Assembly (NCBI GenBank): GCA_034679465.1
Contig: JAXDAV010000026.1
Location: forward strand, 239-64,238
Length of the DNA stretch: 64,000 bases
Reading direction: 5' to 3'
Origin: Candidatus Aminicenantes bacterium
Lineage (GTDB): Bacteria > Acidobacteriota > Aminicenantia > Aminicenantales > Saccharicenantaceae
Shown here: positions 45 to 12,034 of the stretch, in pieces
Layout: every line of letters begins with the position of its first letter
How positions within the stretch are numbered: the stretch's first letter is position 1
Notes under the pieces: model-generated
What the model saw: the letters and a program-made list of their open reading frames with translations, nothing else
Databases searched by the model: none
What the model was told of the DNA's origin: nothing
Position numbers and translations under genes: made by a program

Positions 45-1097
45 CTATCTTGTCGCGTCCACGAAATAGAAATAATCGTAGGCGAAGCGGGCCATCCTCG
101 CGATGACCTCCTCGGCGTCCGCGGTATCGCCCATGAAATTCTTGGTCCAGACGGTCAAGACGAGGTGGCCTTGGCCGTCCGGAAGATAGATGATGCCGCA
201 GTCGTCGACCGTCCCGGCGATCGTCCCCGTCTTGTGGGCCACGCGCGTCCCGCGGGGGAGTCCGCCCTTGATCCGGCCGGCGCCGGTCTGGCACTTCAGC
301 ATGATCTCGAGGATGAGCTCGCACGAGGCCGGATCGATGATCTCCCGGCGGAAGATCTTGGCCAGCAAGGCGGTCATGGTCTTGGGCGTGGCTTGGTCCC
401 GGAGATCGGCGCTGAAGGCCAGGATGTCCTTTTTTCGCGCCTCCGGGGTCTTGCCGCCGCTCGCTCTCCGCGCGGCCGTGACCTCGTCGAGCGGCAGATG
501 GCCGTACCTGCCGTAGTCCATCCCCAGGTAGTCCATGATCAGCTGCTGACAGGGCCGGTTGACCGACATGCCGATGATGCCCAGGCTGGCCAGACGGGCA
601 TTGACCTTCTCCGCCCCGACCTTGGCCAGAAGCAGGTCGGTCGCCGAATTGTCGCTGATGAGCATCATCAGGTTGATGAGGTTGCGGACCGAAAGGACGA
701 TGCCCGGCGCCGTCAAGCTCGAGAGCAGTCCGCTGCCCAGATGCAGGTCGGTCTTCTCGATCCGGACCTCGTCGTCGAGCTTGAATCGTCCTTCCCGAAT
801 CTGGGACATGACCTCGACGAGGAGAGGGACTTTGAAGGCCGAGGCCATGGGGAACATCGCGTCTCCGTTGACGGCCAGCTCCCGGCCGGTCTCGATGTGC
901 AACAGGGAGACCCCGACTTCGCCCTCTTGATCCTTCATGACCTCGCGGAGCTGCTTTTCGAGTCGCCCCAGGCCGGTCGGGGGAGGAGCGTCTTGAGCCG
1001 CAGCCGCAGGTCCGGCGGCCGCAACCAGCAGGGCCAGAAGGCCCAGAAGGACGGCCGGCCCTTTACTCGTCAGGGAAAAGGATTGGATGCGAACCAT
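45..1097 (-). CDS. Exported class A beta-lactamase-fold serine hydrolase (PBP/DD-peptidase-like)
   Basis: ORF 45..1142. Start trimmed to ATG at 1097 (MVRIQSF...), preceded by AAGGAGA. Signal peptide LLGLLALLVAAAGPAAAAQ. SxxK (SAFK), SDN (ISDNSATD) and KTG (HKTGT) occur in class A order. Confidence 0.8.
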   Translation of the reverse strand: MVRIQSFSLTSKGPAVLLGLLALLVAAAGPAAAAQDAPPPTGLGRLEKQLREVMKDQEGEVGVSLLHIETGRELAVNGDAMFPMASAFKVPLLVEVMSQIREGRFKLDDEVRIEKTDLHLGSGLLSSLTAPGIVLSVRNLINLMMLISDNSATDLLLAKVGAEKVNARLASLGIIGMSVNRPCQQLIMDYLGMDYGRYGHLPLDEVTAARRASGGKTPEARKKDILAFSADLRDQATPKTMTALLAKIFRREIIDPASCELILEIMLKCQTGAGRIKGGLPRGTRVAHKTGTIAGTVDDCGIIYLPDGQGHLVLTVWTKNFMGDTADAEEVIARMARFAYDYFYFVDATR

Positions 1098-1210
1098 GGG
1101 CACTCTCCTTTTTGACAAGACACCCTGCTCCCTTCTTAACAACTCCTCGTCATAAATGCAAGACCGGGCTTGACACGGGCTTTTCGTCCCTTGACTTTCA
1201 TCTCCGCCGG

Positions 1211-2338
1211 ATGATAAAGAGCGTGGTCATGCGATCGATCACCAAACCGACGCTCGTCCTCGACGAAGGCCGGGCGCGCAGGAATATCGAGCGGATGGCC
1301 GCGCGGGCCCGGCGCCTCGGCGTCCGCTTCCGGCCCCACTTCAAGACGCACCAATCGCTCCACGTCGGCCGCCTCTTCCGCGAATACGGGGTCGAGGCGA
1401 TCACCGTCTCGTCCGTCGACATGGCGGCGTATTTCGCCGGCGACGGCTGGCGGGACATCCTCATCGCCTTTCCGCTCAACATCCTGGAGGCCGGCGAGAT
1501 CGGCCGGCTGGCGGCGCGGTGCCGGCTGGGCGTCCTGGTCGAGTCGGCGCCGGGGCTGGCGGCCCTGTCCCGGAGCGTCGCCTCGCCGCTCGACGTTTGG
1601 ATCAAGATCGACGTCGGGGCCCACCGGGCCGGGGCGGATTGGGACGACCGGGCGCTTCTCGCCGCGATCGGTCGGGAGGCGGCCCGGCATCCGGCCTTCC
1701 GCCTGCGCGGGCTCCTGACCCACAACGGCCGGACCTATTCGGCCCGGACCTACGAATCGCTCTCCCGCGTCCACGCCGACGCGATGCGGAAGATGCGCCT
1801 GGCCAAAAGGGCGATGGCGGCGGACGGGTTTCCGGACCTGGAGATCTCGGTCGGCGACACGCCCGCCTGCAGCCGGCTGGACGATTTCGCCGGGGCCGAC
1901 GAGATCCGCCCCGGCAACTTCGTGCTTCACGACGTGACCCAGCTTGAGCTCGGGACCTGCGGCGAGACGGGCATCGCCGCGGCCGTGGCTTGTCCCGTGG
2001 TTTCCACGCACCCGTCCCGGAACGAAGCCGTCATCTTCGGCGGCGCGATCCACCTGTCCAAAGAGGACTTCCGCTCGCTCCGCGACGGACGGATCTTCGG
2101 CCGGGCCTGCCGGCCGCGAGGGGAAGGGTGGGGCGCGATCCTCCCGGAAACGGCCGTGGCGGCCTTGTCGCAAGAGCATGGCGTCGTCAGGACGACCCAG
2201 GCCGGGCTCAGGCGGATCAAGGCCGGGGACGTTCTCTTCGTTCTCCCCGTGCACTCCTGCCTGACGGTCAACCTCTGGGACCGCTTCAAGAGCCTCGACG
2301 GAACAGATATCCCGACCATCAAATCTTGCTCTTTATAA
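1211..2338 (+). CDS. D-TA/DSD1-family PLP enzyme (alanine-racemase-N fold; D-serine dehydratase / D-threonine aldolase type)
   Basis: ORF 1112..2338. Likely start at ATG 1211 or 1229 (MRSITKPTLVLDE...). N-terminal RFRPHFKTHQS is the PLP-lysine motif of this family. About 370 aa, typical length. Divergent from the class A-like hydrolase. Confidence 0.7.
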   Translation: MIKSVVMRSITKPTLVLDEGRARRNIERMAARARRLGVRFRPHFKTHQSLHVGRLFREYGVEAITVSSVDMAAYFAGDGWRDILIAFPLNILEAGEIGRLAARCRLGVLVESAPGLAALSRSVASPLDVWIKIDVGAHRAGADWDDRALLAAIGREAARHPAFRLRGLLTHNGRTYSARTYESLSRVHADAMRKMRLAKRAMAADGFPDLEISVGDTPACSRLDDFAGADEIRPGNFVLHDVTQLELGTCGETGIAAAVACPVVSTHPSRNEAVIFGGAIHLSKEDFRSLRDGRIFGRACRPRGEGWGAILPETAVAALSQEHGVVRTTQAGLRRIKAGDVLFVLPVHSCLTVNLWDRFKSLDGTDIPTIKSCSL

Positions 2339-2387
2339 ATAATTTACGAGTGTAGGTCCAAATAATTTGAAGCACATAATTTTTTGC

Positions 2388-2415
2388 TTGACAAAATTCG
2401 GATATATCATATATT
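2388..2415 (+). promoter_or_regulatory. Candidate sigma70 promoter of the GntR gene/operon (TTGACA-16 nt-TATATT) with embedded GATATATC palindrome
   Basis: TTGACA at 2388-2393 and TATATT at 2410-2415, in an AT-rich island within high-GC DNA, 19 bp upstream of ATG 2434. Palindrome GATATATC at 2401-2408 could be an operator. Confidence 0.4.
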
Positions 2416-2433
2416 CTGCGGTGGAAGGCCAAT

Positions 2434-3114
2434 ATGGACTGGAGACCGTCAGCTTTTCAGGTCCCCGCGACGCTCAGCGAAACCATCTATCATTCCCTCA
2501 AAAAGGCCCTCATCGACGGCGAGATCAAGCCGGGCCAGCGGCTCCAGGAAAAAGAGATCGCGGCCCTCTACAACACCTCCTCGACCCCCGTCCGGGAGGC
2601 CTTCTTCCGCCTGGCCGCCGAGAAGTACCTGGTCATCAACGCCCGCAAGGAAGTGCTGGTTCAGGACACGACCAAGGAAGAAGTCCGCGAGCTCTATGAG
2701 ATCGTCCGGGCCCTGGACATCCTGGCCGGGCGCAAGTCGCTCGCCCGGATGGAGGACCGCGACATCCGGGCGATCGGGGAGATGACCGCGGAGCTCGGGC
2801 GCTTCCATGCGGCCGACGACCACCACCGCTACCTCGAGCAGAACCTCCGCATCCACGACCGGATCTGGAGTCAGTGCGGGAGCGTCTCGCTCTACGAGAC
2901 CCTGACCGATCTCATGGCCAAGATCGCCATCTACCGCCGCAAGACGGACTTCTCGCCCTTCGCCGATCCCCCGGCCCTGGAGAAGTCCTATCGCGACCAT
3001 CTCGAGATCTTCCGGCTCATCGAGCGCCGCGACGCGGCCGGCCTGGAAGAGCTGACCAAAGTCCACTGGGGCGAGGAATTCTCCATCGACGAGGCCGATC
3101 AGAGCGAGCGCTGA
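2434..3114 (+). CDS. GntR-family transcriptional regulator (FadR/FCD subfamily)
   Basis: N-terminal winged HTH (IYHSLKKALIDGEIKPGQRLQEKEIAALYNTSSTPVREAFFRL) followed by an all-helical C-terminal FCD-like domain. 226 aa. Confidence 0.85.
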   Translation: MDWRPSAFQVPATLSETIYHSLKKALIDGEIKPGQRLQEKEIAALYNTSSTPVREAFFRLAAEKYLVINARKEVLVQDTTKEEVRELYEIVRALDILAGRKSLARMEDRDIRAIGEMTAELGRFHAADDHHRYLEQNLRIHDRIWSQCGSVSLYETLTDLMAKIAIYRRKTDFSPFADPPALEKSYRDHLEIFRLIERRDAAGLEELTKVHWGEEFSIDEADQSER

Positions 3115-3211
3115 GCGCCCCCCTGGAGGTGAAACCAACGGACAACAGCCGCAGAGAATGAGCGATCCAGTCACCCGCGTTTCCATCGGATATCAACGAG
3201 GAGGAATGTTC

Positions 3212-6019
3212 ATGCGATCCATCAAGGCCATTAGCGCTGCTTGCCTGTTCCTCGTGGCCACGGTCCTGTCTTTCGGTCAGATGATTCCGACCGGACAGCT
3301 CGTCGGCACGGTCACGGACAGCGACAGAACGCCGCTTCCCGGCGTCAGCGTCACCATCAGCAGCCCGTCGCTGATGCTGCCGCAATTGGCTGCCGTCACC
3401 AACGAGAACGGGCTCTACCGGTTCTTTTCCCTCCCGGCCGGCTCCTATAAGGTCACCTTCGACCTCGCCGGCTTCCGGGGCGTCGTCCGCGAGGGCATCA
3501 TCCTCAGCGGTTCCCGGACCGTCACCCTCGACATCACCCTCGAGCCGGGCGGTATCGAGGAGTCCATCACCGTCATCGGGCAGTCTCCGACCGTCGACCT
3601 GAAGATGACCCAGACGGGGGCGACCTTCACCCAGGACATGATCTCGACCCTGCCCCTGGCCCGCGACCTCGCCTCCATCTTCAACTCGGCCCCCGGCATG
3701 TTCGCCCGGACCTCGCACGGCAGTGACGCCCGGTCCAACAACTTCATCGTCGACGGCGTCAAGATGCAGGACCCCGTGACGGGCGACCCGTATCAGACGG
3801 TCCCCTGGAACGCCATCGACGAGGTCGAGATCGAAACGGGCAGTCAGAAGGCCGAATACGGCGCGGTCAAGGGCGCCCTGGTCAACGTCATCACCAAGGC
3901 CGGCGGCAACACCTTCTCCGGCGGCCTCAACTTCTATTACCGGAGCAAGTCCCTCCAGTCCGACAATACGGCCGGCACCCCGTTCGAGGGGCAGTTCGTC
4001 GGCTTCCGTTACCAGTATCTGCCCGGCTTCTCGCTCGGCGGCCCGATCGTCAAGGACAAGGTCTGGTTCTTCACCAGCCTCGACGTCGACAAGTCCTCGT
4101 CCTACACGCAGGGATTCCCCGCGCCGGCCACCCCGGGCGGCCCCCAGCCCCCCTCCGCCCCGATCGGGCAAAGCACCATCGCGCCGTTCGGCAAGGTCAC
4201 CTTCCAAATCAGCGAGCGGGACAAGCTCATCGTCTCCGGCTACTGGCGCGGCTACACCTGGGACCACCGCGGCGCCAGCCGCTGGAACGTCCTGAACGCC
4301 AACACCAACGAGGACTCAGCCGTCACCATCGCCACGGCTCAGTGGACCCGGACGATGTCCAAGGACCTCCTGTTCAACCTCAAGGGCTCCTGGTACTCCC
4401 TGCACCAGTATCTGCTGGCCAACGACACCCTGTCGCCCCTGGTCGACGAGGCCACGGATAATATCAACCGCGGCGGCTGGGGCTCCGACTGGTGGTACAC
4501 CCGTCGGCGGGCCCAGATGAACAGCGACCTGACCTGGTACAAGGACAACTGGCTCGGCACGCACGAGTTCAAGGCCGGCGCCGACGCCGAGTTCTCGTTC
4601 GACGGCACCGAGTGCGCCTACTACCAGGATCCCCATTTCGAGGGCGTCTTCCCCGACGGCTTCAAGGCCGTCGACATCTATCTCTGGAACGGCGTGCCCA
4701 ACTGGGCCTGGGTCGGGACCGAGCTCAAACAGAAGAACAACCTCATCCAGGTCGGCGGCTTCATTCAGGACACCTGGTCCCCGGCCCGGCGGATGACCGT
4801 CAACCTGGGCCTCCGCCTGGACTATTCCCAGGGCAACTACCCGCCCCAAAAGAAGCGGAACTCCGACGAGTGGACCAACGAACAAACGATCCACGCCATG
4901 AGCTTCACCATGCTCTCGCCGCGGCTGGGCTTGACCTACGACCTCACCGGCGACGGCAAGACCGTCCTCAAGACGAGCTTCGGCCGCTACTACGCGCCCC
5001 TGCTCATGATCTACTACTACTTCAACAACCCCAACCAGCGGTCCTCCTTCTGGGCCCAGCTCAACCCCGACTGGTCGGTCAATTACACGACTCCGGTCTC
5101 TTCGCCGGGCACCACGACGGTCGACCCCGGCATCAGCTCGCCCTACGCCGACGAGCTCAACTTCGGCATCGAGCGCGAGCTCTTCGAGGACTTCTCCGCT
5201 TCGGCCACCTTCATCGCCAAGTGGGAGCAGAACCTGATCGACGACGTCGACCGGGCCCACCTCGATTGGGACCACTACCTGGGCACCGGCGAGCTGACCT
5301 GGACGGGCTACCATGAAGTCGTGGGCACCGACCCCTTCACCGGCAATCCCATCACCTTCTACGAAATGGACGACACCTTCGGCGACTACGGCTTCGTCTT
5401 CCAGAACGTGCCCGGCACGGCCCGCAAGTATATGGGCCTCGAGTTCAAGCTGACCAAGCGCATGTCGGACCGCTGGGCCATGCAGGCCAGCTACGTCTGG
5501 TCCCGCGGCCGCGGCATTCTCAACACCTCCCGCGACCAGAGCACGGGCTTCTCCGGCTTCTACGACGACCCGAACACTATGATCAACGCCTACGGGCGCC
5601 TCGACTACCAGCGCGAGCACCTGGTCAAGATCCAGGGCACCTGGGCCGGTCCGTGGGGCGTCAACGTCAGCGGCTACTACCAGTTCGGCAGCGGCATCCC
5701 CTACACCCGCGTCCTGCGGAGCTACGAGGCCGGCCTCGGCAGTCTCTACCAGGGCGGCGTGACCATCTTGGCCGAGCCGCGCGGCAGCCACGAGCTGCCG
5801 GACCAGCATCTGCTCGACCTCCGGCTCGAAAAGGCCTTCCGGATGGGCCGCGGCGAGATCGCCGTCCAGGCCGACGTCTACAACGCCTTCAACAACAACC
5901 GCACGACGAGCATCGGCAACGTCACGAACTACAACTGGTTCCTTGACGAGCGCGGCCAGTCCGTGTTCGGCATCATGGGACCGCGCTACTTCCAGCTGGG
6001 AGTCGTTTACAGGTTCTGA
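3212..6019 (+). CDS. TonB-dependent outer-membrane receptor with N-terminal carboxypeptidase-regulatory-like domain (Oar-type)
   Basis: ORF 3158..6019. GAGGAGG at 3198-3204 fits ATG 3212 (MRSIKAIS..., signal peptide). CarboxypepD_reg signature (GTVTDSDRTPLPGVSVTISS...NGLYRFFSLPAGSYKVTF). Plug-like NNFIVDGVKMQDP. Beta-barrel ends in the terminal aromatic ...GVVYRF. Confidence 0.8.
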   Translation: MRSIKAISAACLFLVATVLSFGQMIPTGQLVGTVTDSDRTPLPGVSVTISSPSLMLPQLAAVTNENGLYRFFSLPAGSYKVTFDLAGFRGVVREGIILSGSRTVTLDITLEPGGIEESITVIGQSPTVDLKMTQTGATFTQDMISTLPLARDLASIFNSAPGMFARTSHGSDARSNNFIVDGVKMQDPVTGDPYQTVPWNAIDEVEIETGSQKAEYGAVKGALVNVITKAGGNTFSGGLNFYYRSKSLQSDNTAGTPFEGQFVGFRYQYLPGFSLGGPIVKDKVWFFTSLDVDKSSSYTQGFPAPATPGGPQPPSAPIGQSTIAPFGKVTFQISERDKLIVSGYWRGYTWDHRGASRWNVLNANTNEDSAVTIATAQWTRTMSKDLLFNLKGSWYSLHQYLLANDTLSPLVDEATDNINRGGWGSDWWYTRRRAQMNSDLTWYKDNWLGTHEFKAGADAEFSFDGTECAYYQDPHFEGVFPDGFKAVDIYLWNGVPNWAWVGTELKQKNNLIQVGGFIQDTWSPARRMTVNLGLRLDYSQGNYPPQKKRNSDEWTNEQTIHAMSFTMLSPRLGLTYDLTGDGKTVLKTSFGRYYAPLLMIYYYFNNPNQRSSFWAQLNPDWSVNYTTPVSSPGTTTVDPGISSPYADELNFGIERELFEDFSASATFIAKWEQNLIDDVDRAHLDWDHYLGTGELTWTGYHEVVGTDPFTGNPITFYEMDDTFGDYGFVFQNVPGTARKYMGLEFKLTKRMSDRWAMQASYVWSRGRGILNTSRDQSTGFSGFYDDPNTMINAYGRLDYQREHLVKIQGTWAGPWGVNVSGYYQFGSGIPYTRVLRSYEAGLGSLYQGGVTILAEPRGSHELPDQHLLDLRLEKAFRMGRGEIAVQADVYNAFNNNRTTSIGNVTNYNWFLDERGQSVFGIMGPRYFQLGVVYRF

Positions 6020-6107
6020 CCCGCAATCTTCTTGTTCCCTGCAACGCCGGGCCGGCGCCCCTGCCTGGGGGCGCCGGCCTCGGCCATCGACCGGAAGGAG
6101 GCCCGAC

Positions 6108-7361
6108 ATGACCCCAGAGCCCGCTTCGAACGACCGGACGGACGGACGGCCCGGCCGGCGTGAATTCCTGGCCAAATCCCTGGCCGGTTTCTTCCTGCTC
6201 AACGGCTCCCTCGGCCGCCTCTTCGCCGACGACGAGCCTCCCCTCGGCGACGCCCCGGCCCCGGCCGGCGGCTTCATCATGGAGAGCGCCCCCGGCCCGG
6301 AGACGGTCCTCAACGGCAAGCGGGTCCTCTATTTCGGGGGCACCGGCTATTTCGCCCTGCACGGGCACCCGGAGGTCATCGAGGCCGGCGTCGGCGCCTT
6401 CCGCCAGTACGGCTGTCACAGCGCCACGTCGCGGACGGGCTTCGGCAACACGCCCGTCCAGCTCGAGCTGGAGCGGAAGATCGCCGAGTTCTTCGGCACC
6501 GAGGACTCGATCCATTTCGTCTCCGGTTATCTCGACAATCTCTTCCTCGTCCAGGCCCTCAAGGACAGGGTCGGGGCCATCTTCATCGACGACACGGCCC
6601 ATTTCAGCATCCGGGACGCCGTCTATTCCGCCCTCAAGCCGGTCCACACCTTCAGGCACCGCGATCCCGAGGACCTGGCCCGCCAGATCAGGGCCCGGCT
6701 CAAGGCGGGCGACGTCCCCCTGGTCATGACCGACGGCGTCTTCCCGACCTTCGGGCTCATCGCGCCCGTCCCCGAGTTCGTCAAGGTCCTTGAGCCCTAC
6801 CAGGGCTATCTCTGCATCGACGATTCTCACTCGGTCGGCGTCCTCGGTCCCAACGGCCGCGGCACCTACGAGCACTTCGGCATCAAATCCGAGCGTTGCT
6901 TCTACGCCGGGACGATGAGCAAGGCCTTCGGCGGGCACGGCGGGTTCATCCCGGCCTCCAAGGCCTTCATCGACCACATCAAGGCGACCTGCGGCGCCTA
7001 TCCCGGCGCGACGCCGAGCCCGACCCCGGCCATGGCCGCGTCGATGAAAGGGCTCGAGATCGTCCGGCGCGAGCCCCAGCGGCGCGAGCGGCTGAGGCGG
7101 AACGTCGCCCGGGTGAAGACGGGGATGAGGAAGCTCGGCTTCGAGATGAACGACAACCCCGTGCCCATCGTCACCTGGGCCCTGAAGTCCGCCGACGACA
7201 TGAAGAAGGTCCAGAAGGAGCTCTTCGACCGGGGCCTGGCCGTCGCTCTCTCGAACTATGTCGGGGCCCCCGCCGGCGGCGTCCTGCGGGCCTCCATCTT
7301 CTCCGAACACACGACCGAGCAGATCGACCGTCTGCTGGCCGAGATCAAGCGGCTGGCCTGA
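6108..7361 (+). CDS. Alpha-oxoamine synthase family PLP enzyme (AONS/KBL/SPT-like) with twin-arginine signal
   Basis: ORF 5943..7361. GGAAGGAGG RBS before ATG 6108. N-terminus GRREFLAKSLAGFFLL matches the Tat consensus. Family motifs HSATSRTGFGN, IDDSHSVGVLG and PLP-lysine GTMSKAFGGHGG. Confidence 0.75.
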   Translation: MTPEPASNDRTDGRPGRREFLAKSLAGFFLLNGSLGRLFADDEPPLGDAPAPAGGFIMESAPGPETVLNGKRVLYFGGTGYFALHGHPEVIEAGVGAFRQYGCHSATSRTGFGNTPVQLELERKIAEFFGTEDSIHFVSGYLDNLFLVQALKDRVGAIFIDDTAHFSIRDAVYSALKPVHTFRHRDPEDLARQIRARLKAGDVPLVMTDGVFPTFGLIAPVPEFVKVLEPYQGYLCIDDSHSVGVLGPNGRGTYEHFGIKSERCFYAGTMSKAFGGHGGFIPASKAFIDHIKATCGAYPGATPSPTPAMAASMKGLEIVRREPQRRERLRRNVARVKTGMRKLGFEMNDNPVPIVTWALKSADDMKKVQKELFDRGLAVALSNYVGAPAGGVLRASIFSEHTTEQIDRLLAEIKRLA

Positions 7362-7416
7362 GCCCGGCGCCGGGCATCGCTCCGTTCGGGGCGTCGGCCG
7401 CGGGAGGACGACCATC

Positions 7417-8919
7417 ATGATGAGACACTCCCGGCTTTCCCGGATGGCGGCCTTCGCCGTCCTCTGCCTCCTTGTCGTCGCGGCGGCCTGCAAGCCCGCC
7501 CCGCCCTCCGCGCCCGCCGCCGACGCGGGTCCCGGCCTCGAGGCCGTTCGCGGCCGGGTCGCGGGCCAGCTGACGGCCCGGGGCCTCGTCGGCCTCTCGG
7601 CGGCCGTCGTCCAGGACGGCCGGACCGTCCTGGCGGAGGGCTTCGGCGTCAGCTCCCTTCGGACCGGCGAACCGGTCGGCGCGGAGACGATGTTCGCCAT
7701 CGGCTCCATCACCAAGCAGTTCACCGCGGCCTGCGTCCTCCTCCTGGCCGAGGACGGGAAGCTTGCGGTCACGGACCCGGTCTCGAAATACTACCCCGGG
7801 CTGACCAGGGCCGGGGATATCACCCTGCTCGACCTGATGAACCATGTCTCCGGCTATCCCGATTACTATCCCCTCGATTTCGTCGAACGGCCCATGGCCC
7901 GGGCGACGGCCAGCGACGAGGTCATCCGCATCTTCGGGACGAGACCGCTCGATTTCGAGCCCGGGACGAGATACTCCTATTCGAACACGGGTTATCTCAT
8001 TCTCGGCCGCGTCGTCGAGAAGGTCGGCGGCGAGCCGTTCGGCGATTTCCTGGAGCGGCGGATCCTCGGGCCCCTGGGGCTGACGCACACGGCCTACGAG
8101 CCCGACCCCGAAAGCCCGGCCTGCGCCCGGGGGCACATGTCGTTCTGGCTCGGCGCGCCCGAAGCGGTGCCCCTCGAGGGCCAGGGCTGGGTCGCGGCCG
8201 CCGGAGCGCTCTTCTCCACGCCGACCGATCTCGCGGCCTGGGACCTGGCCCTCATCGGCGGCCGGGTGTTGAAGCCGGTCTCCTTCGATCTCATGACGAC
8301 GCCGCGGCGGCTCAACGACGGGACGCTCTCGAAGTACGGCTGCGGCCTGGCCCTGGGCGAGCGGGGCGGGGTGTCTTTCCTGTCCCACAGCGGGGCGGTC
8401 AACGGCTTCAACGCCCAGAACATCGTCGTTCCCTCGACCCGCTCGGCCGCCATCCTGCTCTCCAATCTATCGTCCTTCAGCGACACGAACGCCGTCTTCA
8501 GCGAACTCACGGCCCTCATCCTGCCCAAGCCGGCGGCGTCCCCCGCCGGCGCGCCGTCCGCCCAGGGCCCGGACAAGCCCCGGCCGCCGGCCCCGAAGCC
8601 CGGCCTGCCGGCCGTCGCCGGGCCTCCGGTCGCGGACGTGGTCCAGGCGTTCTTCCGGGCCCTCCAGAAGGGCCGGGTCGACCGCTCCTCGCTCGGGACG
8701 GAGTTCAACGTCTTCCTCCAGGAGAGCGTCATCGCCCCGGCCGCGGAGAGGATGCGGGGCTTCGGCGAGCCGACGGGGGTCGTGGTCGAATCGATCGGCG
8801 AGCGGGGCGGCATGGAAGTCTCGACGACCCGGCTGGAATTCCCGTCGGGCGTCCTCAAGGTCCTCCTGTACCGGACCCCGGACGGCAAGATCCAACAGCT
8901 CTTCATCCAGAAGGGCTGA
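7417..8919 (+). CDS. Lipoprotein, class C beta-lactamase-fold serine hydrolase (D-aminopeptidase/DD-peptidase/esterase type) with C-terminal beta domain
   Basis: ORF 7258..8919. Start ATG 7417 (MMRHSRLSRMAAFAVLCLLVVAAAC, lipobox). SxxK (SITK), YxN (YSNTGY), HxG (HSGAVNG). Extra C-terminal domain of about 130 aa. Confidence 0.8.
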   Translation: MMRHSRLSRMAAFAVLCLLVVAAACKPAPPSAPAADAGPGLEAVRGRVAGQLTARGLVGLSAAVVQDGRTVLAEGFGVSSLRTGEPVGAETMFAIGSITKQFTAACVLLLAEDGKLAVTDPVSKYYPGLTRAGDITLLDLMNHVSGYPDYYPLDFVERPMARATASDEVIRIFGTRPLDFEPGTRYSYSNTGYLILGRVVEKVGGEPFGDFLERRILGPLGLTHTAYEPDPESPACARGHMSFWLGAPEAVPLEGQGWVAAAGALFSTPTDLAAWDLALIGGRVLKPVSFDLMTTPRRLNDGTLSKYGCGLALGERGGVSFLSHSGAVNGFNAQNIVVPSTRSAAILLSNLSSFSDTNAVFSELTALILPKPAASPAGAPSAQGPDKPRPPAPKPGLPAVAGPPVADVVQAFFRALQKGRVDRSSLGTEFNVFLQESVIAPAAERMRGFGEPTGVVVESIGERGGMEVSTTRLEFPSGVLKVLLYRTPDGKIQQLFIQKG

Positions 8920-8944
8920 CCAAGAACCACTTGAGAGGTGCCTC

Positions 8945-10162
8945 ATGAGTCTGTCCCGCAAGCAATTCCTGAAGACCCTCGGCCTCGGAGGCCTGGCCTC
9001 CGGTTTGGGCGGCCTCCGCCTGCCGCTGGCCGGGTCCCAAGCCGGCCAAGCCCGCCGCGCGGCCCCGAAGACGACCATCAAGGACATCGAGATCTACGCC
9101 TTCGACCTGCCGCTCGTGGCCCCGTTCCGCATCTCGATCGGCGAGATGAGGGCGGCCAACGACGTGCTCGTCCGCGTCCGTGCCTCGAACGGCCTCACGG
9201 GCATCGGCGAGGCCTGCCCCTTCCCGCCCATCACCGGCGAGACCCAGGCCACCAACATCGCCGCGGCCAAGGCCATCCGCGGCATGCTCCTCGGCCGGGA
9301 CCCGCTGGCGATCGACGCCGTCCTGCGCCTCATCGGACCGATCGTGCACTCGAACCCGAGCATCGTCGCCGCTTTCGAGACGGCCTGCTTCGACCTCCTC
9401 GGCCAGGCCGCGGGCCTGCCGCTCTTCCGCCTCTTCGGGGGCGACAAGACCACCTTCGAGACCGACATCACCACGGGCATCGACACGCCGGAGGCCATGG
9501 CGGCCAGCGTCCGGAAGCACGCCGCCCTGGGCTACAAGACGCTCAAGGTCAAGATCGGCGTGGATCCCGACCAGGACTTCGAGCGGCTCCGCGCCGTCCG
9601 CGAGGCGGTCGGCGACGGCGTCGCCCTGCGCGTCGACGCCAACCAGGGCTACACCGTGCCCCAGGCGATCTACGCCTTGAAGAAAATCGAGCCCCTGCGC
9701 ATCCAGCTCGTCGAACAGCCGGTCAAGGCCTCGGACATCGGCGGCCTCGCGACCGTCCGGTCGGAGAGCCCCATCCCCATCATGGCCGACGAATCGCTCT
9801 TCGGGCCGGCCGACGCCCTGAAGCTCATCGGGGCCGGCGCCTGCGACTACCTGAACATCAAGCTCATGAAGGCCGGAGGCCTCCTCAACTCGATCCGCAT
9901 CGCCCACATCGCCGACGCCGCCAACATGCGGAGCATGGTCGGCTGTATGCTGGAATCGCGGATCGCCCTGACCGCGGCCGCCCACGTCGTCGCCTCCCAG
10001 GCCAACATCGTCTTCGCCGACCTCGACGGCAACGCCGAGCACACGGCCGATCCGGTCGTCGGGGGGATGACCGTCAAGGCCGGGATCGTCACGATGCCGG
10101 AGACGCCGGGCCTCGGCTGCGACATCGATCCGGCCTTCCTGAAGAAGATGGCCAAGGTCTGA
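8945..10162 (+). CDS. Dipeptide epimerase (L-Ala-D/L-Glu epimerase type, enolase superfamily) with Tat-like signal
   Basis: KxK motif (LKVKIG), metal ligands DANQGY / LVEQPV / MADES, and the second catalytic Lys in NIKLMKAGG. N-terminus MSLSRKQFLKTLGLGGLASGLGG resembles a Tat signal with RK instead of RR. Confidence 0.8.
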   Translation: MSLSRKQFLKTLGLGGLASGLGGLRLPLAGSQAGQARRAAPKTTIKDIEIYAFDLPLVAPFRISIGEMRAANDVLVRVRASNGLTGIGEACPFPPITGETQATNIAAAKAIRGMLLGRDPLAIDAVLRLIGPIVHSNPSIVAAFETACFDLLGQAAGLPLFRLFGGDKTTFETDITTGIDTPEAMAASVRKHAALGYKTLKVKIGVDPDQDFERLRAVREAVGDGVALRVDANQGYTVPQAIYALKKIEPLRIQLVEQPVKASDIGGLATVRSESPIPIMADESLFGPADALKLIGAGACDYLNIKLMKAGGLLNSIRIAHIADAANMRSMVGCMLESRIALTAAAHVVASQANIVFADLDGNAEHTADPVVGGMTVKAGIVTMPETPGLGCDIDPAFLKKMAKV

Positions 10163-10173
10163 AGGAGGTCCCC

Positions 10174-11211
10174 GTGATCCAACGCAATCGGCTCGTTGCC
10201 GCCGGCTTCACCCTCCTCCTCGCCGCGGGGACCGCGGGCCTCGCGGCCCAGGACTTCGTCTGGCCCGTTCCCAAAACGCGCGCCGATCTTGAACAGGCCC
10301 TTCGCGCCCAGGCCGCCAAGGTCAACGGCCGGATGGGGATCTTCGTCAAGCACGTCGAGTCGGGCGAATCGATCGGCCTCCGCGAGGGCGAGCGGTTCCA
10401 GCTGGCCTCCGTCTTCAAGATCGCCGTCCTCATGACGCTCCACAAGCAGGTCCATCTCGGGATGATCTCCCTCGACGACCGCATCCCCTTCGCCGAGCGG
10501 ATGAAGACCTACGGCAGCGGCCTGATGACGGGCATGAGGCCCGGGCTGAACATCTCGGTCCAGGACCTGCAGCTGCTGATGATGGCCCGGTCCGACAACA
10601 CCGCGACCGACATCCTCTTCGATCTGGTCACGCCCGAGGCCGTCGCCGCGACCGTCGCGGAGCTGGGCCTCAAGGACACGACGATCGACGTCGATACGCG
10701 GGCCCTCATCCTCGGCTTCCTTGGGCTCGATCCGGCCAGGCGCCTGACGATCGCCGAGCTCGGCCATCTGCCGGCCTCGGTCTGGGCCGACCCGGCGCGC
10801 GAGGCCGCGGCCAGGGCCTTCGAGGCCTCGATCCATAACACCTCGACGCCGAAGGACATCGCGGCCATGCTTGAGGCCTGCGTCAAGGGCGCCTTCGTCG
10901 ACCGCGAGACGAGCGACCGGATCCTCAAGACGATGAGGTCCCACACCGGGGCCGAGCTCATCCTGCGCTATCTGCCGGAATCGACGGCGGTCGCCCGCAA
11001 GGGCGGCAGCTTGAGCCGGGACGGCGGGGACGTCGTCCTCAACGACAGCGCCGTCATCTGGCTGCCGGAGAAGGCGGGGACCCTGGTCCTGTGCTTCTTC
11101 GGGAACGGCCTCCGCGAGGTCCACTACGAGATCAAGCACAAGGTCGGGCTGATAGCCCGGGCGGCCTACGACTACTTCCTGGCCAAGAACAGGAAGCCGG
11201 CCAAGGGCTGA
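10174..11211 (+). CDS. Exported class A beta-lactamase-fold serine hydrolase, paralog of 45..1097
   Basis: In-frame 3' part of ORF 8938..11211. GTG 10174 is preceded by GAAGGAGG (10161-10168). Signal peptide LLLAAGTAGLAAQ. SxxK (SVFK), SDN (RSDNTATD), KGG (RKGGS). It has the same insertion after SDN as the first paralog. Confidence 0.75.
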   Translation: MIQRNRLVAAGFTLLLAAGTAGLAAQDFVWPVPKTRADLEQALRAQAAKVNGRMGIFVKHVESGESIGLREGERFQLASVFKIAVLMTLHKQVHLGMISLDDRIPFAERMKTYGSGLMTGMRPGLNISVQDLQLLMMARSDNTATDILFDLVTPEAVAATVAELGLKDTTIDVDTRALILGFLGLDPARRLTIAELGHLPASVWADPAREAAARAFEASIHNTSTPKDIAAMLEACVKGAFVDRETSDRILKTMRSHTGAELILRYLPESTAVARKGGSLSRDGGDVVLNDSAVIWLPEKAGTLVLCFFGNGLREVHYEIKHKVGLIARAAYDYFLAKNRKPAKG

Positions 11212-11281: not shown

Positions 11282-12034
11282 ATGGCTGATCCCATGGACC
11301 TGATCTATCGAAAAGAATACGCCGTCCACACCTATGAGACCGACCCCCAGGGCCTGGCCAAGACGACGGCCCTGCTCAATTACCTTCAGGACGCCGCCGG
11401 GGCCCACGCCGGCCGATTGGGGCTGTCGGTCCGCGATCTCTTCAAGCGCGGCCTGACCTGGGTCCTGTCGCGCTACCACATCCTCGTTCATCGCTATCCG
11501 GCCGCGGGCTCGCGGCTCGAGGTCACGACCTGGCCGTCGGGCCAGGGAGGCCATTTCGCCACCCGCGACTTCGAGGCCGCGGACGGCGCCGGCCCCGTCC
11601 TTTCGGCGACGAGCTCCTGGATGATCCTCGGGCTCGAGCGCAAGCAGCCGCTCAAGGTCGATGACATCATCGACATCCCCTACGCCGTCGACCTGAGGGC
11701 GCTCGACGACCCGTTCGCCTCGCTGCCCGTCCTGGCCGCCCGCGACGCCGAGCTGCGCTATCGCGTCCGCGCGGCCGATCTCGACTGGAACCGCCACGTC
11801 AACAACGCGGTCTACGTCCAATGGGCGCTCGAGGCCGTCCCGGCCGACGTCCTGCGCGGCAGCCGGCCGGTCGAGCTCGAGATCTCCTACCGGGCCGAGA
11901 CCTTCTACGGGGAGGACGTCCTGTCGATCGTCCAGCGCCTTTCGGACGACGGCCCCGGACCGGTCTTCCTCCACCAGATCCTCAATGCCGCGACGGGCGC
12001 GGAGCTGACCCGGCTGAGGACGCGATGGGCGTGA
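11282..12034 (+). CDS. Acyl-ACP thioesterase family protein
   Basis: Double hotdog-type sequence (YRKEYAVHTYETDPQGLAKTTALLNYLQDAAGAHA...LTWVLSRYHI; second half RVRAADLDWNRHVNNAVY). Start ambiguous between 11282 and 11294, because a perfect TATAAT lies at 11274-11279. Confidence 0.75.
   Translation: MADPMDLIYRKEYAVHTYETDPQGLAKTTALLNYLQDAAGAHAGRLGLSVRDLFKRGLTWVLSRYHILVHRYPAAGSRLEVTTWPSGQGGHFATRDFEAADGAGPVLSATSSWMILGLERKQPLKVDDIIDIPYAVDLRALDDPFASLPVLAARDAELRYRVRAADLDWNRHVNNAVYVQWALEAVPADVLRGSRPVELEISYRAETFYGEDVLSIVQRLSDDGPGPVFLHQILNAATGAELTRLRTRWA

What the first reader, a model, noticed from the sequence alone, without database searches (positions are those of the whole stretch)
45..11211. Coherent, almost entirely exported locus that looks like a D-amino-acid peptide (muropeptide) scavenging system
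A GntR regulator is followed, on one strand and with gaps of at most 97 bp, by five genes:
- an Oar-type TonB-dependent receptor;
- a Tat-signal alpha-oxoamine-synthase-like PLP enzyme;
- a class C-like serine hydrolase lipoprotein (SITK/YSN/HSG);
- a dipeptide (L-Ala-D/L-Glu-type) epimerase with a Tat-like signal;
- a class A-like serine hydrolase.

Immediately upstream are a second class A-like paralog and a D-Ser/D-Thr-type (DSD1/D-TA family) PLP enzyme.

Penicillin-binding-fold hydrolases act on D-Ala-D-Ala or D-aminoacyl peptides. AE-type epimerases act on L-Ala-D-Glu from peptidoglycan stem peptides. The combination with a TonB receptor resembles a PUL-like system for peptidoglycan peptides, in which the chemistry takes place in the periplasm. 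I do not recall such an arrangement being described. No inner-membrane transporter is encoded in the block.
Basis: inference. Interest (0 to 1): 0.65.

Follow-up and report, generated by a model that had tools for sequence, protein, structure and literature searches.

The report
Periplasmic D-peptide utilisation locus, Acidobacteriota
An uncultured Aminicenantes bacterium carries an operon that most likely imports peptides containing D-amino acids through an outer-membrane TonB receptor and processes them in the periplasm; its conserved core is an undescribed pair, an exported dipeptide epimerase plus an exported vitamin-B6 (PLP) enzyme that cannot be doing its family's usual CoA-dependent reaction.

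Summary
A conserved promoter precedes GntR/FCD, an Oar-type TonB receptor, a Tat-signal AOS-like PLP enzyme, an S12 serine peptidase, a dipeptide epimerase and a class-A-like serine hydrolase. A cytoplasmic D-Ser-dehydratase-like gene and a divergent class-A-like paralogue lie upstream.

I compared 83 related loci from Acidobacteriota.
- The full block is confined to one Aminicenantes clade and is modular.
- The widely conserved unit is the PLP enzyme plus the epimerase (16 of 19 sequence groups).
- In adjacent pairs, both proteins carry export signals (14) or neither does (11). None pairs a Tat PLP enzyme with a signal-less epimerase.
- TonB receptors and S12 peptidases accompany essentially only the exported form.
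- Distant loci rebuild the same kit with other regulators and extra peptidases (S15, M13, S33).

The general reading, uptake and periplasmic processing of D-amino-acid peptides, is supported. The muropeptide or L-Ala-D-Glu specificity is not: the Glu-binding Arg is Gly here, and no amidase, LD-carboxypeptidase or gamma-D-Glu peptidase is present.

The S12 enzyme resembles D-stereospecific peptidases rather than class C beta-lactamases. The PLP enzyme's reaction is unknown; I propose CoA-independent C-alpha chemistry (racemase or epimerase).

No experimental test was possible. I rate it a new variant of a known kind, of moderately high interest.

The parts
45..1097 (-). clsA1: class-A-like (PBP-A/LRA-5-like) serine hydrolase with a Sec-type signal peptide. 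Motifs SAFK, SDN and KTG, and a ~35-60 aa insertion in the omega-loop region.
   Evidence: Pfam Beta-lactamase2 at 5e-56. NCBIfam bla_class_A scores 193.1 against a cut-off of 200. The PDB alignment splits around residues 178-237. 30% identical to clsA2. No Glu at the E166 position in the MAFFT alignment with TEM-1. No copy at this position in any related locus.
1229..2338 (+). DSD1-type fold-III PLP enzyme (D-Ser / D-threo-3-hydroxy-Asp dehydratase-like) without a signal peptide, so cytoplasmic. An alternative start lies at 1211.
   Evidence: Pfam Ala_racemase_N + D-ser_dehydrat. Best PDB matches are 3wqc at 4e-42 and 3anu at 4e-40. The same family recurs next to S12 and AOS-like genes in Terriglobia loci L062 and L067.
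2388..2415 (+). Sigma-70-like promoter: TTGACA at 2388-2393 and TATATT at 2410-2415. It overlaps the conserved element TATATCATATAT (2403-2414), a candidate GntR operator.
   Evidence: An 11/12 consensus match; with its alternative-spacer variant it gives two of the three promoter-like matches in 12.2 kb, against 0.8 expected, and the third is a 9/12 match on the minus strand inside the TBDR gene. cTTGAC and TATATnnTATAT are conserved in 12 loci while the flanks diverge.
2434..3114 (+). GntR-family regulator with an FCD effector domain (FadR subfamily).
   Evidence: Pfam GntR at 1.4e-15 and FCD at 1.9e-15. Orthologues sit at the same position in the close clade.
3206..6019 (+). Oar-type TonB-dependent receptor: signal peptide, CarboxypepD_reg domain, plug and beta-barrel. 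The ORF opens at 3158; likely starts are 3206 or 3212.
   Evidence: Pfam OMP_b-brl_4, CarboxypepD_reg and Plug. Full-length homologues of 38% identity head S12-epimerase(-AOS) operons in L079, L029 and L035.
6108..7361 (+). Alpha-oxoamine-synthase-like fold-I PLP enzyme with a twin-arginine signal (GRREFLAK, residues 16-23). It belongs to an uncharacterised subfamily.
   Evidence: Below every NCBIfam AOS equivalog cut-off. PLP and substrate residues H165, D238, H241, K272 and R394 align with SPT H159, D231, H234, K265 and R390 and are conserved in at least 95% of 74 members. RRxF is invariant in 13 homologues of 57-83% identity.
7417..8919 (+). S12-family serine peptidase (R61 / alkaline D-peptidase / D-aminopeptidase-like) with a lipoprotein-type signal (LVVAAAC). 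Motifs SITK, YSN and HSG, plus a Pro-rich linker and a ~95 aa C-terminal domain of unknown family.
   Evidence: Pfam Beta-lactamase at 3e-71. Best NCBIfam matches are D-aminopeptidase and AmpH; class C scores 91 against a cut-off of 415. Best PDB matches are 4y7p, 9s7k, 2qmi, 1cef, 3wwx, 2dns and 1ei5.
8945..10162 (+). Dipeptide epimerase (enolase superfamily, MLE subgroup) with a Tat-like N-terminal signal that has a single Arg (SRKQFLK).
   Evidence: Pfam MR_MLE_N and MR_MLE_C. PDB matches are 3q45 at 4e-76, 3jva at 1e-75 and 1jpm at 5e-72. The KxK/K bases, the D/E/D metal ligands and DxD are conserved, and YkfB Arg24 is Gly66 here. The motif [ST]R[KQGNT]xFLK is conserved in homologues next to Tat-AOS genes.
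10174..11211 (+). clsA2: class-A-like serine hydrolase with a GTG start after GGAGG and a Sec signal. Motifs SVFK, SDN and KGG, with a remodelled omega loop.
   Evidence: (bla_class_A scores 125 against 200). Orthologues of 69-86% identity in 13 loci lie in either orientation.

Best explanation
This is a TonB-dependent locus for using D-amino-acid-containing peptides, not one specific to muropeptides.

Proposed mechanism (inferred unless marked as shown):
1. The GntR/FCD repressor controls one transcript from a conserved promoter and operator.
2. The Oar-type receptor brings oligopeptides into the periplasm.
3. An S12 D-stereospecific-type peptidase (a lipoprotein) and class-A-like PBP-type hydrolases cut bonds next to D-residues.
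4. A conserved exported pair, the dipeptide epimerase (Mg2+; inverts the C-terminal residue of dipeptides) and the Tat-exported AOS-like PLP enzyme, converts the resulting D-containing dipeptides or amino acids into L-forms. Ordinary, unlinked permeases and peptidases can then handle these.
5. The cytoplasmic DSD1-type enzyme deaminates imported D-Ser- or D-hydroxy-amino acids.

For the PLP enzyme I propose CoA-independent C-alpha deprotonation chemistry: racemisation or epimerisation of a small amino acid or of the dipeptide's N-terminal residue, or less likely transamination. It is not a Claisen condensation.

Shown here: the gene content, motifs, signals, synteny, and the co-variation of localisation.

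Inferred: all substrates and reactions.
For: 1. Anatomy: six co-oriented genes with gaps of 11-91 bp follow a single 11/12 promoter match, with no convincing internal terminator. The promoter and a TATATnnTATAT element are conserved in 12 loci.

2. D-specific relatives: the S12 protein's best solved relatives are alkaline D-peptidase, DD-carboxypeptidases, D-aminopeptidase and D-amino-acid amidase. DSD is closest to D-threo-3-hydroxy-Asp and D-Ser dehydratases. The epimerase has every catalytic motif of dipeptide epimerases.

3. A conserved pair: the epimerase accompanies the AOS-like gene in 51 of 76 loci and in 16 of 19 groups defined at 70% identity.

4. Localisation co-varies: adjacent pairs are both-signal (13, plus L073) or both-no-signal (11). 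There are 2 ambiguous cases and no case of a Tat-AOS with a signal-less epimerase. This holds even within one orthologous YggS-EPI-AOS context.

5. The same 76 positions are at least 95% conserved in exported and cytoplasmic members. These include the PLP Lys, the His/Asp/His set and the carboxylate Arg. The chemistry is therefore the same in both compartments and cannot need CoA, ACP or ATP.

6. S12 genes (29 of 58 loci) and TBDRs (27 of 58) accompany Tat-AOS loci. Among 25 signal-less loci they occur in 1 and 2, and the single S12 case is a broken hit.

7. Independent rebuilds in distant lineages:
- L079: TBDR-S12-EPI-AOS-IclR.
- L029 and L035: IclR-TBDR-S12-EPI.
- L072 and L075: M13, TBDR-AOS-EPI-S33-S12 x3-4.
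- L062, L066 and L067: S12, DSD-like, GntR/FCD, TBDR.
- L056 and L070: S15.

8. Weak expression evidence: contigs of a sediment 'RNA-Seq' run from 85-95% similar organisms cover the TBDR to clsA2 region and span the S12/EPI and EPI/clsA2 junctions.
Against: - No enzyme was assayed, and every substrate is inferred from family resemblance.
- S12 and class-A-like folds also include esterases and true beta-lactamases.
- The epimerase signal has one Arg only (RK here; RQ, RG, RN or RT in homologues), so its export route is unproven.
- No SignalP or TatP run was available, and the presence of a Tat system in this genome was not checked.
- The AOS-like enzyme keeps the Arg that binds a free alpha-carboxylate in AOS enzymes. 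This fits a free amino acid better than a dipeptide N-terminus.
- No racemase is known in the AOS family.
- The co-occurrence statistics are not corrected for phylogeny.
- Several close relatives have the AOS gene without the TBDR, S12, EPI or clsA2 genes beside it (L007, L012, L015, L023, L049, L076). The full block is therefore not obligatory.
- The RNA evidence comes from assembled contigs of related organisms in a run whose RNA status is only guessed.
Confidence: 0.55

Rival explanations
1. One reading: a system dedicated to peptidoglycan stem peptides. DD-peptidases would trim D-Ala-D-Ala and the epimerase would convert L-Ala-D-Glu to L-Ala-L-Glu, all in the periplasm.
For: - Dipeptide epimerases of E. 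coli and B. subtilis act in murein-peptide catabolism (PMC2954226).
- The S12 and class-A-like proteins resemble DD-peptidases.
- The organism lives in an anaerobic digester, which is rich in necromass.
- The closest solved epimerase is reported to epimerise D-Ala-D-Ala. This rests on my recollection of Lukk et al. 2012; the paper could not be retrieved.
Against: - The epimerase scores 223 against a cut-off of 500, and 118 against 343, for the two Ala-Glu epimerase equivalogs.
- It has Gly at the YkfB Arg24 position.
- No MurNAc-L-Ala amidase, LD-carboxypeptidase, gamma-D-Glu-DAP peptidase or glycan-handling gene is found in this block or recurrently in the 83 loci.
- The extra peptidases in distant versions are generalists (S15, M13, S33).
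Confidence: 0.2
2. A defence or detoxification locus. The beta-lactamase-fold proteins would inactivate beta-lactams or D-residue non-ribosomal peptide antibiotics, as D-stereospecific resistance peptidases do. The TBDR and regulator would sense or import them.
For: - Three beta-lactamase-fold proteins are present.
- clsA1 scores 193 against a cut-off of 200 for class A beta-lactamase.
- The S12 family contains D-stereospecific peptidases that cleave non-ribosomal peptides (my own knowledge).
Against: - The canonical class A E166/N170 pair is not recognisable and the omega loop is remodelled.
- The class C score is 91 against a cut-off of 415, and the third motif is HSG rather than KTG.
- Resistance would not explain the conserved epimerase plus PLP pair, the D-Ser-dehydratase-like enzyme, or the S15, M13 and S33 peptidases and multiple S12 paralogues in related loci.
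- Active import by a TBDR is the opposite of what a resistance locus needs.
Confidence: 0.1
3. Envelope remodelling rather than feeding. The exported PLP enzyme and epimerase would make D-amino acids or D-dipeptides in the periplasm, and the PBP-like hydrolases would edit the cell's own peptidoglycan, as periplasmic broad-spectrum racemases do in Vibrio.
For: - The PLP enzyme and the epimerase are exported.
- PBP-like hydrolases are present.
- In one clade the pair sits next to the YggS PLP-binding protein.
Against: - The tight, recurrent linkage with TonB receptors, metabolite-sensing regulators (GntR/FCD, IclR), catabolic D-Ser-dehydratase-like enzymes and general peptidases is typical of nutrient loci.
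- There are several paralogous copies per genome, for example three contexts in one MAG: L011, L029 and L049.
- The pair also exists in the cytoplasm.
Confidence: 0.08
4. There is no common function. The genes would be neighbours by descent in one clade, and the AOS-like enzyme would be a lipid or cofactor biosynthetic enzyme, being adjacent to an acyl-ACP thioesterase.
For: - In six close relatives the AOS-like gene lies directly between backbone genes and the acyl-ACP thioesterase, without the TBDR or hydrolases.
- The full block is seen only in one clade (at least 78% AOS identity).
Against: - The Tat signal is invariant, and the periplasm has no acyl-CoA or acyl-ACP.
- The thioesterase link does not extend beyond the close clade, whereas the links to the epimerase, S12 peptidases and TBDRs do.
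- The localisation of the PLP enzyme and the epimerase co-varies.
Confidence: 0.07

Closest known systems
Murein-peptide catabolism with L-Ala-D/L-Glu epimerase (E. coli MpaA-YcjG-PepD; B. subtilis YkfABC)
   Same: It uses an enolase-superfamily dipeptide epimerase to turn a D-containing dipeptide into an L,L-dipeptide, together with peptidases acting on D-residue bonds (PMC2954226). The catalytic motifs are shared.
   Different: - The known pathways are cytoplasmic and their epimerases lack signal peptides (PMC2954226). Here the epimerase carries a conserved Tat-like signal.
- The Glu-binding Arg is absent here.
- The partner enzymes differ: S12 and class-A-like hydrolases and an AOS-like PLP enzyme replace LdcA/YkfA, MpaA/YkfC and PepD.
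- Uptake is by a TBDR rather than by Opp/Mpp or AmpG.
TonB-dependent nutrient utilisation loci (Bacteroidota PULs; the RagAB peptide importer)
   Same: A regulator, an outer-membrane TonB-dependent transporter and exported degradative enzymes sit in one operon. Several paralogous loci occur per genome.
   Different: - There is no SusD/RagB-like lipoprotein.
- The receptor is Oar-type with a CarboxypepD_reg domain.
- The cargo is inferred to be peptides with D-residues.
- The locus contains stereo-inverting enzymes, which to my knowledge PULs do not.
S12 D-stereospecific peptidases (Bacillus alkaline D-peptidase, Streptomyces R61 DD-peptidase, Ochrobactrum D-aminopeptidase and D-amino-acid amidase)
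   Same: These are the best sequence matches of the 7417-8919 product (E from 5e-38 to 6e-25). They share the SxxK, YxN and HxG motifs.
   Different: - Identity is only around 30%.
- The window protein has a lipoprotein signal and an unassigned C-terminal domain.
- Its substrate is untested.
Alpha-oxoamine synthases (BioF, Kbl, serine palmitoyltransferase, ALAS, CqsA)
   Same: The same fold and the same PLP and carboxylate-binding residues.
   Different: - It scores below all equivalog cut-offs.
- It carries an invariant twin-arginine signal.
- It is always paired with a dipeptide epimerase.
- It functions in a compartment without acyl-thioesters, so the defining Claisen condensation is implausible.
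Tat-exported periplasmic PLP enzymes of pyoverdine tailoring (PvdN, PtaA)
   Same: These are a precedent for PLP enzymes folded with their cofactor and exported by Tat to act in the periplasm (my own knowledge; their periplasmic role is listed in PMC9305348).
   Different: They belong to a different fold-I subfamily and a different pathway (siderophore maturation).
PBP-A (Tll2115) / LRA-5-type class-A-like proteins
   Same: They are among the top solved relatives of clsA1 and clsA2. The class A motifs are present without a canonical omega-loop Glu166.
   Different: clsA1 and clsA2 carry an extra ~35-60 aa insertion in the omega-loop region. clsA2 has KGG instead of KTG.

Membership tests
Dipeptide epimerase (AEE family, MLE subgroup of the enolase superfamily) | Two-domain enolase-superfamily architecture (capping domain plus modified TIM barrel) | tested here: met
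   Pfam MR_MLE_N at 1e-14 and MR_MLE_C at 7.5e-60.
Dipeptide epimerase (AEE family, MLE subgroup of the enolase superfamily) | KxK and Lys acid/base pair, plus Asp/Glu/Asp Mg2+ ligands | tested here: met
   LKVKIG, NIKLMKAGG, DANQ, EQP and ADES align with the YkfB, 3q45 and 3jva equivalents. The residue roles come from my own knowledge.
Dipeptide epimerase (AEE family, MLE subgroup of the enolase superfamily) | DxD motif after strand 8 that binds the dipeptide's alpha-ammonium group | tested here: met
   ADLDG aligns with FDFD (YkfB), YDFD (3q45) and ADLD (3jva). The role of the motif is recalled from Lukk et al. 2012, which could not be retrieved.
L-Ala-D/L-Glu epimerase (equivalog level) | Reaches the NCBIfam equivalog cut-off; has Arg at the YkfB position 24, which binds the Glu side chain | tested here: not met
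   NF041118 scores 223.5 against 500, and NF011708 scores 117.6 against 343. Arg24 aligns with Gly66.
Alpha-oxoamine synthase | Fold-type I PLP enzyme with the Schiff-base Lys, stacking His, Asp/His on the pyridine ring and O3', and a carboxylate-binding Arg | tested here: met
   K272, H165, D238/H241 and R394 align with SPT K265, H159, D231/H234 and R390. They are conserved in at least 95% of 74 members.
Alpha-oxoamine synthase | Membership of a characterised equivalog (BioF, Kbl, SPT, ALAS, CqsA) | tested here: not met
   All scores are below the cut-offs, for example bioF at 245 against 426 and SPT at 241 against 500.
Alpha-oxoamine synthase | Acyl-CoA or acyl-ACP thioester as co-substrate for Claisen condensation | tested here: inconclusive
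   The twin-arginine signal is invariant, and the protein set is conserved equally in exported and cytoplasmic members. These argue against thioester use. No assay was possible.
Tat (twin-arginine) export substrates | N-terminal S/T-R-R-x-F-L-K motif followed by a moderately hydrophobic h-region | tested here: met
   The AOS-like protein has G-R-R-E-F-L-A-K followed by SLAGFFLLNGSLGRLFA. RRxF is invariant in 13 of 13 homologues and present in 58 of 83 loci.
Tat (twin-arginine) export substrates | The same motif in the epimerase | tested here: inconclusive
   The motif is S-R-K-Q-F-L-K. Homologues conserve [ST]-R-x-x-F-L-K but vary at the second Arg position (K, Q, G, N, T). The export route is unknown.
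Class C beta-lactamase | Reaches the bla_class_C cut-off; KTG as the third motif | tested here: not met
   It scores 91.3 against 415. The third motif is HSG. The best relatives are S12 D-peptidases.
Peptidase family S12 (D-stereospecific peptidases / DD-peptidases) | SxxK, YxN and HxG motifs, with closest similarity to characterised S12 enzymes | tested here: met
   SITK, YSN and HSG are present. The top PDB hits are 4y7p, 9s7k, 1cef, 3wwx, 2dns and 1ei5. Stereospecificity itself is not testable here.
Class A beta-lactamase | Reaches the bla_class_A cut-off; Glu166 and Asn170 in the omega loop for deacylation | tested here: not met
   The scores are 193.1 and 125 against a cut-off of 200. The omega-loop region cannot be aligned with solved class A enzymes. 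In the MAFFT alignment with TEM-1, position E166 is T (clsA1) and A or T (clsA2 and its orthologues), and N170 is R.
Polysaccharide-utilisation-locus type system (SusC/SusD) | SusC-type TBDT paired with a SusD-like lipoprotein | tested here: not met
   There is no SusD-like domain in any product of the block, and the receptor is Oar-type.
Peptidoglycan-peptide recycling pathway | AEE accompanied by a MurNAc-L-Ala amidase, an LD-carboxypeptidase and a gamma-D-Glu-DAP peptidase | tested here: not met
   None is in the block, and none is among the recurrent neighbour families of 76 loci. Two M14 genes lie ~5 kb away in L002 and L003 only.

The most novel reading that the evidence does not exclude
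The AOS-like PLP enzyme and the dipeptide epimerase form a cofactor-only (PLP plus Mg2+) two-enzyme 'stereo-inverter'. The epimerase flips the C-terminal residue. The PLP enzyme, a CoA-independent offshoot of the alpha-oxoamine synthases, flips the N-terminal residue or racemises the released small amino acid. Together they convert D,D- or L,D-dipeptides into L,L-forms. Whole lineages have moved the pair between cytoplasm and periplasm, and the periplasmic form has nucleated TonB-dependent D-peptide utilisation loci in Acidobacteriota.
Probability: 0.25. Interest if true: 0.8.

Novelty: new variant of a known kind. Interest (0 to 1): 0.62.

Why it matters
D-amino acids in peptidoglycan, non-ribosomal peptides and aged necromass are a large pool of organic nitrogen and carbon in soils, sediments and digesters. 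This pool is poorly accessible, and how abundant uncultured groups such as Aminicenantes and other Acidobacteriota use it is largely unknown.

This locus offers a concrete, testable gene set for that process. It moves the stereochemical 'normalisation' step to the periplasm, which would explain why no dedicated inner-membrane transporter is needed.

It also points to two possible enzymological novelties:
- Exported dipeptide epimerases. Those of the characterised E. coli and Bacillus pathways lack signal peptides and act in the cytoplasm.
- A large Tat-exported subfamily of alpha-oxoamine-synthase-like enzymes. These cannot be doing the family's defining acyl-CoA chemistry, so they probably catalyse a new reaction.

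Tried and rejected
- **Literature on epimerase specificity.** I tried to retrieve Lukk et al. 2012 and Kalyanaraman et al. 2008 for the specificity residues. Neither is held. Statements on Arg24, the DxD motif and the C. hutchinsonii D-Ala-D-Ala activity therefore rest on memory and on PDB titles.
- **Prior descriptions.** I searched for a periplasmic dipeptide epimerase, a Tat-exported AOS-like enzyme, or a TBDR-linked D-peptidase locus. Nothing relevant turned up.
- **RNA evidence.** Only one run labelled RNA-Seq holds related sequence (8-9% of words). It gives contigs from organisms 85-95% similar, with no read-level or strand information. I treat this as weak.
- **Terminator scan.** It found no convincing internal terminators, and the hits did not exceed the shuffled expectation.
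- **Paralogues in the window.** I looked for a second AOS-like gene, a second epimerase or YggS in the 64 kb window and found none. The only extra relative is an S12 paralogue in the ORF 60748-62604 (-); the tblastn match covers 61366-62223.
- **Link to the thioesterase.** I considered that the acyl-ACP thioesterase downstream (11282-12034) is functionally linked to the AOS-like enzyme. I rejected this because the linkage is confined to the close clade and is incompatible with the Tat signal.
- **Hydrolases as true beta-lactamases.** I rejected filing them so, on cut-offs and motifs.
- **Not done.** I did not run structure prediction or fold search. The sequence matches to solved structures were already unambiguous at fold level, and the tools return no coordinates with which to inspect pockets.

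Full report
**Observation**

ORF listing and translation, Pfam and NCBIfam give the following.

| Gene | Coordinates | Features |
|---|---|---|
| clsA1, class-A-like serine hydrolase | 45-1097 (-) | Sec-type signal; SAFK, SDN, KTG |
| DSD1-type PLP enzyme | 1229-2338 (+) | Ala_racemase_N + D-ser_dehydrat; no signal peptide |
| GntR/FCD regulator | 2434-3114 (+) | |
| Oar-type TonB-dependent receptor | 3158 or 3206-6019 (+) | CarboxypepD_reg, Plug, barrel |
| AOS-like Aminotran_1_2 protein | 6108-7361 (+) | N-terminus ...GRREFLAKSLAGFFLL... |
| Beta-lactamase-fold protein | 7417-8919 (+) | Lipobox-like LVVAAAC; SITK, YSN, HSG |
| MR_MLE dipeptide-epimerase homologue | 8945-10162 (+) | Begins MSLSRKQFLKTLGLGGLA |
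| clsA2, second class-A-like protein | 10174-11211 (+) | GTG start after GGAGG; Sec signal; SVFK, SDN, KGG |

Gaps from GntR to clsA2 are 11-91 bp.

The 12.2 kb region holds three promoter-like matches. Two are spacer variants of one 11/12 site, TTGACA-16-TATATT at 2388-2415, in the AT-rich gap before gntR. The third is a weak 9/12 match on the minus strand inside the receptor gene. No convincing internal terminator was found.

- clsA1 is on the other strand.
- DSD and GntR are cytoplasmic.
- The epimerase 'Tat' motif has a single Arg.

**Source**

The AOS-like protein's relatives and 80 loci from GTDB genomes are nearly all Aminicenantes or other Acidobacteriota MAGs. The window itself is held completely by anaerobic-digester metagenomes.

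**What the individual proteins are**

*Epimerase.* It matches solved dipeptide epimerases strongly: 3q45 from C. hutchinsonii at 4e-76, 3jva from E. faecalis at 1e-75, and 1jpm/1tkk B. subtilis YkfB at 5e-72.
- It keeps the KxK/Lys bases, the Asp/Glu/Asp metal ligands and the DxD motif.
- It is far below both NCBIfam Ala-Glu epimerase cut-offs.
- It has Gly66 where YkfB has Arg24.
- It is therefore a genuine dipeptide epimerase, but there is no evidence that it is Ala-Glu specific.

*'Class C-like' protein.* It is better described as an S12 peptidase.
- Its best solved relatives are alkaline D-peptidase (5e-38), DD-carboxypeptidases including R61, a Streptomyces S12 D-amidohydrolase, D-amino-acid amidase and D-aminopeptidase.
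- Its third motif is HSG rather than KTG.
- It scores 91 against a cut-off of 415 for class C beta-lactamase.

*clsA1 and clsA2.* They are 30% identical paralogues.
- Their omega-loop region carries an insertion and cannot be aligned with solved class A enzymes.
- A MAFFT alignment with TEM-1 shows no Glu at position 166.
- Their relatives include Tll2115 PBP-A and LRA-5.

*DSD.* It is closest to D-threo-3-hydroxyaspartate dehydratase and D-serine dehydratase.

*AOS-like protein.* It aligns over its full length with serine palmitoyltransferase, KBL and BioF and keeps the PLP and carboxylate-binding residues. It is below every equivalog cut-off.

**Export signals**

In 13 homologues of 57-83% identity the N-terminal 50 residues are otherwise free to vary, yet R17, R18 and F20 are invariant. 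Across 83 loci, 58 have RRx[FL] before the conserved core. This is strong comparative evidence for a functional twin-arginine signal.

Epimerase homologues next to these genes conserve [ST]-R-x-x-F-L-K followed by a Gly/Ala-rich hydrophobic stretch, but with K, Q, G, N or T at the second Arg position. The region is clearly a conserved N-terminal targeting element, but its export route is uncertain.

**Synteny**

I ran tblastn with the window's proteins on 83 loci and clustered all called proteins all-against-all.

The full order, S12'-DSD-GntR-TBDR-AOS-S12-(EPI)-clsA2-thioesterase-GWxTD, occurs only in the close clade (at least 78% AOS identity) and is modular:
- EPI-clsA2 is inverted in L004, L005, L011 and L058.
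- EPI is missing from that spot in L008-L010, L016 and L017.
- Six relatives (L007, L012, L015, L023, L049, L076) have the AOS gene flanked directly by backbone genes.

In this clade a second epimerase copy (EPI', 66-74% identical) lies a few kb upstream, directly after an MFS_1 transporter gene. In L015 the two overlap by 4 bp. In the window that position would be left of base 1.

**The conserved core**

Beyond the close clade, only three neighbour families follow the AOS-like gene:
- The epimerase: 51 of 76 loci, 40 of them within 5 kb, and 16 of 19 groups at 70% identity.
- S12 peptidases: 32 loci with 58 copies, in 6 groups.
- TonB receptors: 7 groups.

For adjacent AOS-epimerase pairs:

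| State | Number of pairs |
|---|---|
| Both with a signal | 13, plus L073, whose SRRSLF motif my pattern missed |
| Both without a signal | 11 |
| Ambiguous | 2 |
| Tat-AOS with signal-less epimerase | 0 |

Exported and cytoplasmic pairs occur in the same orthologous context: HD-hydrolase, 3HCDH, YggS-EPI-AOS, Zn-ribbon, DUF362. L002, L003, L039 and L064 are exported; L044, L046, L050, L055, L060, L061 and L071 are cytoplasmic.

Seventy-six positions are at least 95% conserved over both kinds, including H165, D238, H241, K272 and R394. The two enzymes therefore work together in whichever compartment they occupy. The PLP enzyme's reaction cannot depend on CoA, ACP or ATP.

**Exported pairs attract uptake and hydrolysis genes**

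| AOS loci | Number | With S12 | With TBDR |
|---|---|---|---|
| Tat signal | 58 | 29 | 27 |
| No signal | 25 | 1 (L058, a broken hit) | 2 |

Fisher's exact test gives p = 4e-5 for S12 and 8e-4 for TBDR, uncorrected for phylogeny.

Distant lineages rebuild the kit with different parts:
- L079: TBDR-S12-EPI-AOS-IclR in one tight operon.
- L029 and L035: IclR-TBDR-S12-EPI, with the AOS gene nearby.
- Acidobacteriaceae L072 and L075: M13 peptidase, TBDR-AOS-EPI-S33 hydrolase, then three or four S12 genes.
- L062: S12 and a DSD-like gene, then TBDR-S12-AOS-S12-S12.
- L066 and L067: EPI and S12 (plus a DSD-like gene in L067) divergent from AOS-GntR/FCD-TBDR-S12.
- L056 and L070: S15 peptidase and several S12 genes.

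Single MAGs carry several such loci; for example, L011, L029 and L049 come from one bin.

**Regulation and expression**

The gntR upstream region keeps cTTGAC and TATATnnTATAT in 12 loci while the surrounding sequence diverges. This fits a conserved promoter with an overlapping operator.

A sediment run labelled RNA-Seq contains contigs 85-95% similar to the TBDR-to-clsA2 region. These include contigs spanning the S12/EPI and EPI/clsA2 junctions, and there is little over clsA1. This is only suggestive: the contigs come from related organisms, their RNA status is guessed, and DNA carry-over is possible.

**Interpretation**

It does not support a muropeptide-specific system:
- The Glu determinant is absent.
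- No amidase, LD-carboxypeptidase or gamma-D-Glu peptidase is linked.
- The additional peptidases in related loci are generalists.

The known AEE pathways of E. coli and Bacillus are cytoplasmic and their epimerases have no signal peptides (PMC2954226). Exported epimerases are therefore a real difference.

Moving stereo-inversion into the periplasm would let housekeeping L-specific permeases take up the products. That would explain the missing inner-membrane transporter, although the clade's MFS-EPI' pair may also serve.

For the PLP enzyme I propose CoA-independent C-alpha chemistry (racemase or epimerase, possibly transaminase). Three points support this:
- AOS catalysis begins with C-alpha deprotonation.
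- An alpha-aminoacyl amide resembles the alpha-oxoamine product.
- Tat export of PLP enzymes has a precedent in PvdN and PtaA (my own knowledge).

This is inference only. The retained carboxylate-binding Arg favours a free amino acid as substrate.

**Novelty and verdict**

Searches of the accessible literature found no description of this arrangement, of exported dipeptide epimerases, or of Tat-exported AOS-like enzymes.

I rate the locus a new variant of a known kind: a TonB-linked nutrient locus combined with D-peptide catabolism. It has a realistic chance of hiding a new enzyme activity. Interest is 0.62, and confidence in the general mechanism is 0.55.

Noticed in passing
L002, L003, L032, L039, L044, L046, L050, L055, L061 (for example L050:8214-11083): In one Aminicenantes clade a YggS-type PLP-binding protein (Ala_racemase_N, ~220 aa) directly precedes the epimerase-AOS pair. 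In L050 it overlaps the epimerase start by 4 bp. This holds whether the pair is exported or cytoplasmic. It may deliver PLP, or it may just be backbone synteny.
   Followed up: partly
L015:5802-8521; L007:4084-6908; L016:2-2344: An MFS_1 transporter gene sits immediately upstream of a second, Tat-like epimerase paralogue (EPI', 66-74% identical) a few kb before the AOS-like gene in the window's clade. In L015 the two overlap by 4 bp. It is a candidate inner-membrane partner. In the window it would lie beyond the left edge.
   Followed up: partly
window 60748-62604 (-): A further S12 / beta-lactamase-fold paralogue, 34% identical to the operon's S12 protein over ~300 residues (tblastn match at 61366-62223). 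It lies ~50 kb from the locus, next to large exported proteins.
   Followed up: no
window 45-1097 against L004:2914-5076, L005, L006, L008, L011, L014, L017, L058: The slot upstream of the DSD gene holds a class-A-like gene on the minus strand in the window. Relatives have an S12 paralogue there on the plus strand (27-29% identical to the operon's S12). This looks like a variable 'hydrolase slot'.
   Followed up: partly
L011, L029, L049 (one MAG); L005 and L076; L006 and L035: Single bins contain two or three AOS-like genes in different contexts: the full operon, a minimal backbone version, and an IclR-TBDR-S12-EPI version. The full and minimal versions share the same backbone, so they could be strain variants binned together rather than true paralogous loci.
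   Followed up: no
window 8500-8919 (S12 protein residues ~365-500): A Pro/Ala-rich linker is followed by a ~95-residue C-terminal domain with no Pfam match. It may be analogous to the extra gating domains of D-aminopeptidase or Pab87.
   Followed up: no
L007:6915-8246 (-), L049:6996-8327 (-), L004:1165-2496 (-): A GH109-like Gfo/Idh/MocA protein with a clear twin-arginine motif (DRR[AE]FLKV) lies between EPI' and the AOS-like gene in the clade's backbone. Its relation to the peptide genes is unknown.
   Followed up: no
window 11282-14121: An acyl-ACP thioesterase and a GWxTD/TPR protein follow the operon. They are conserved backbone genes in the close clade only and appear unrelated to the locus.
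   Followed up: partly
window 23800-33700 and 45500-60500: The rest of the window holds other clusters, judged from N-terminal sequences only: a likely molybdopterin or hydrogenase-type oxidoreductase with membrane subunits, two-component regulators, a fucose-isomerase / aldolase / FGGY-kinase-like group, and several large exported proteins. These were not analysed with family searches.
   Followed up: no
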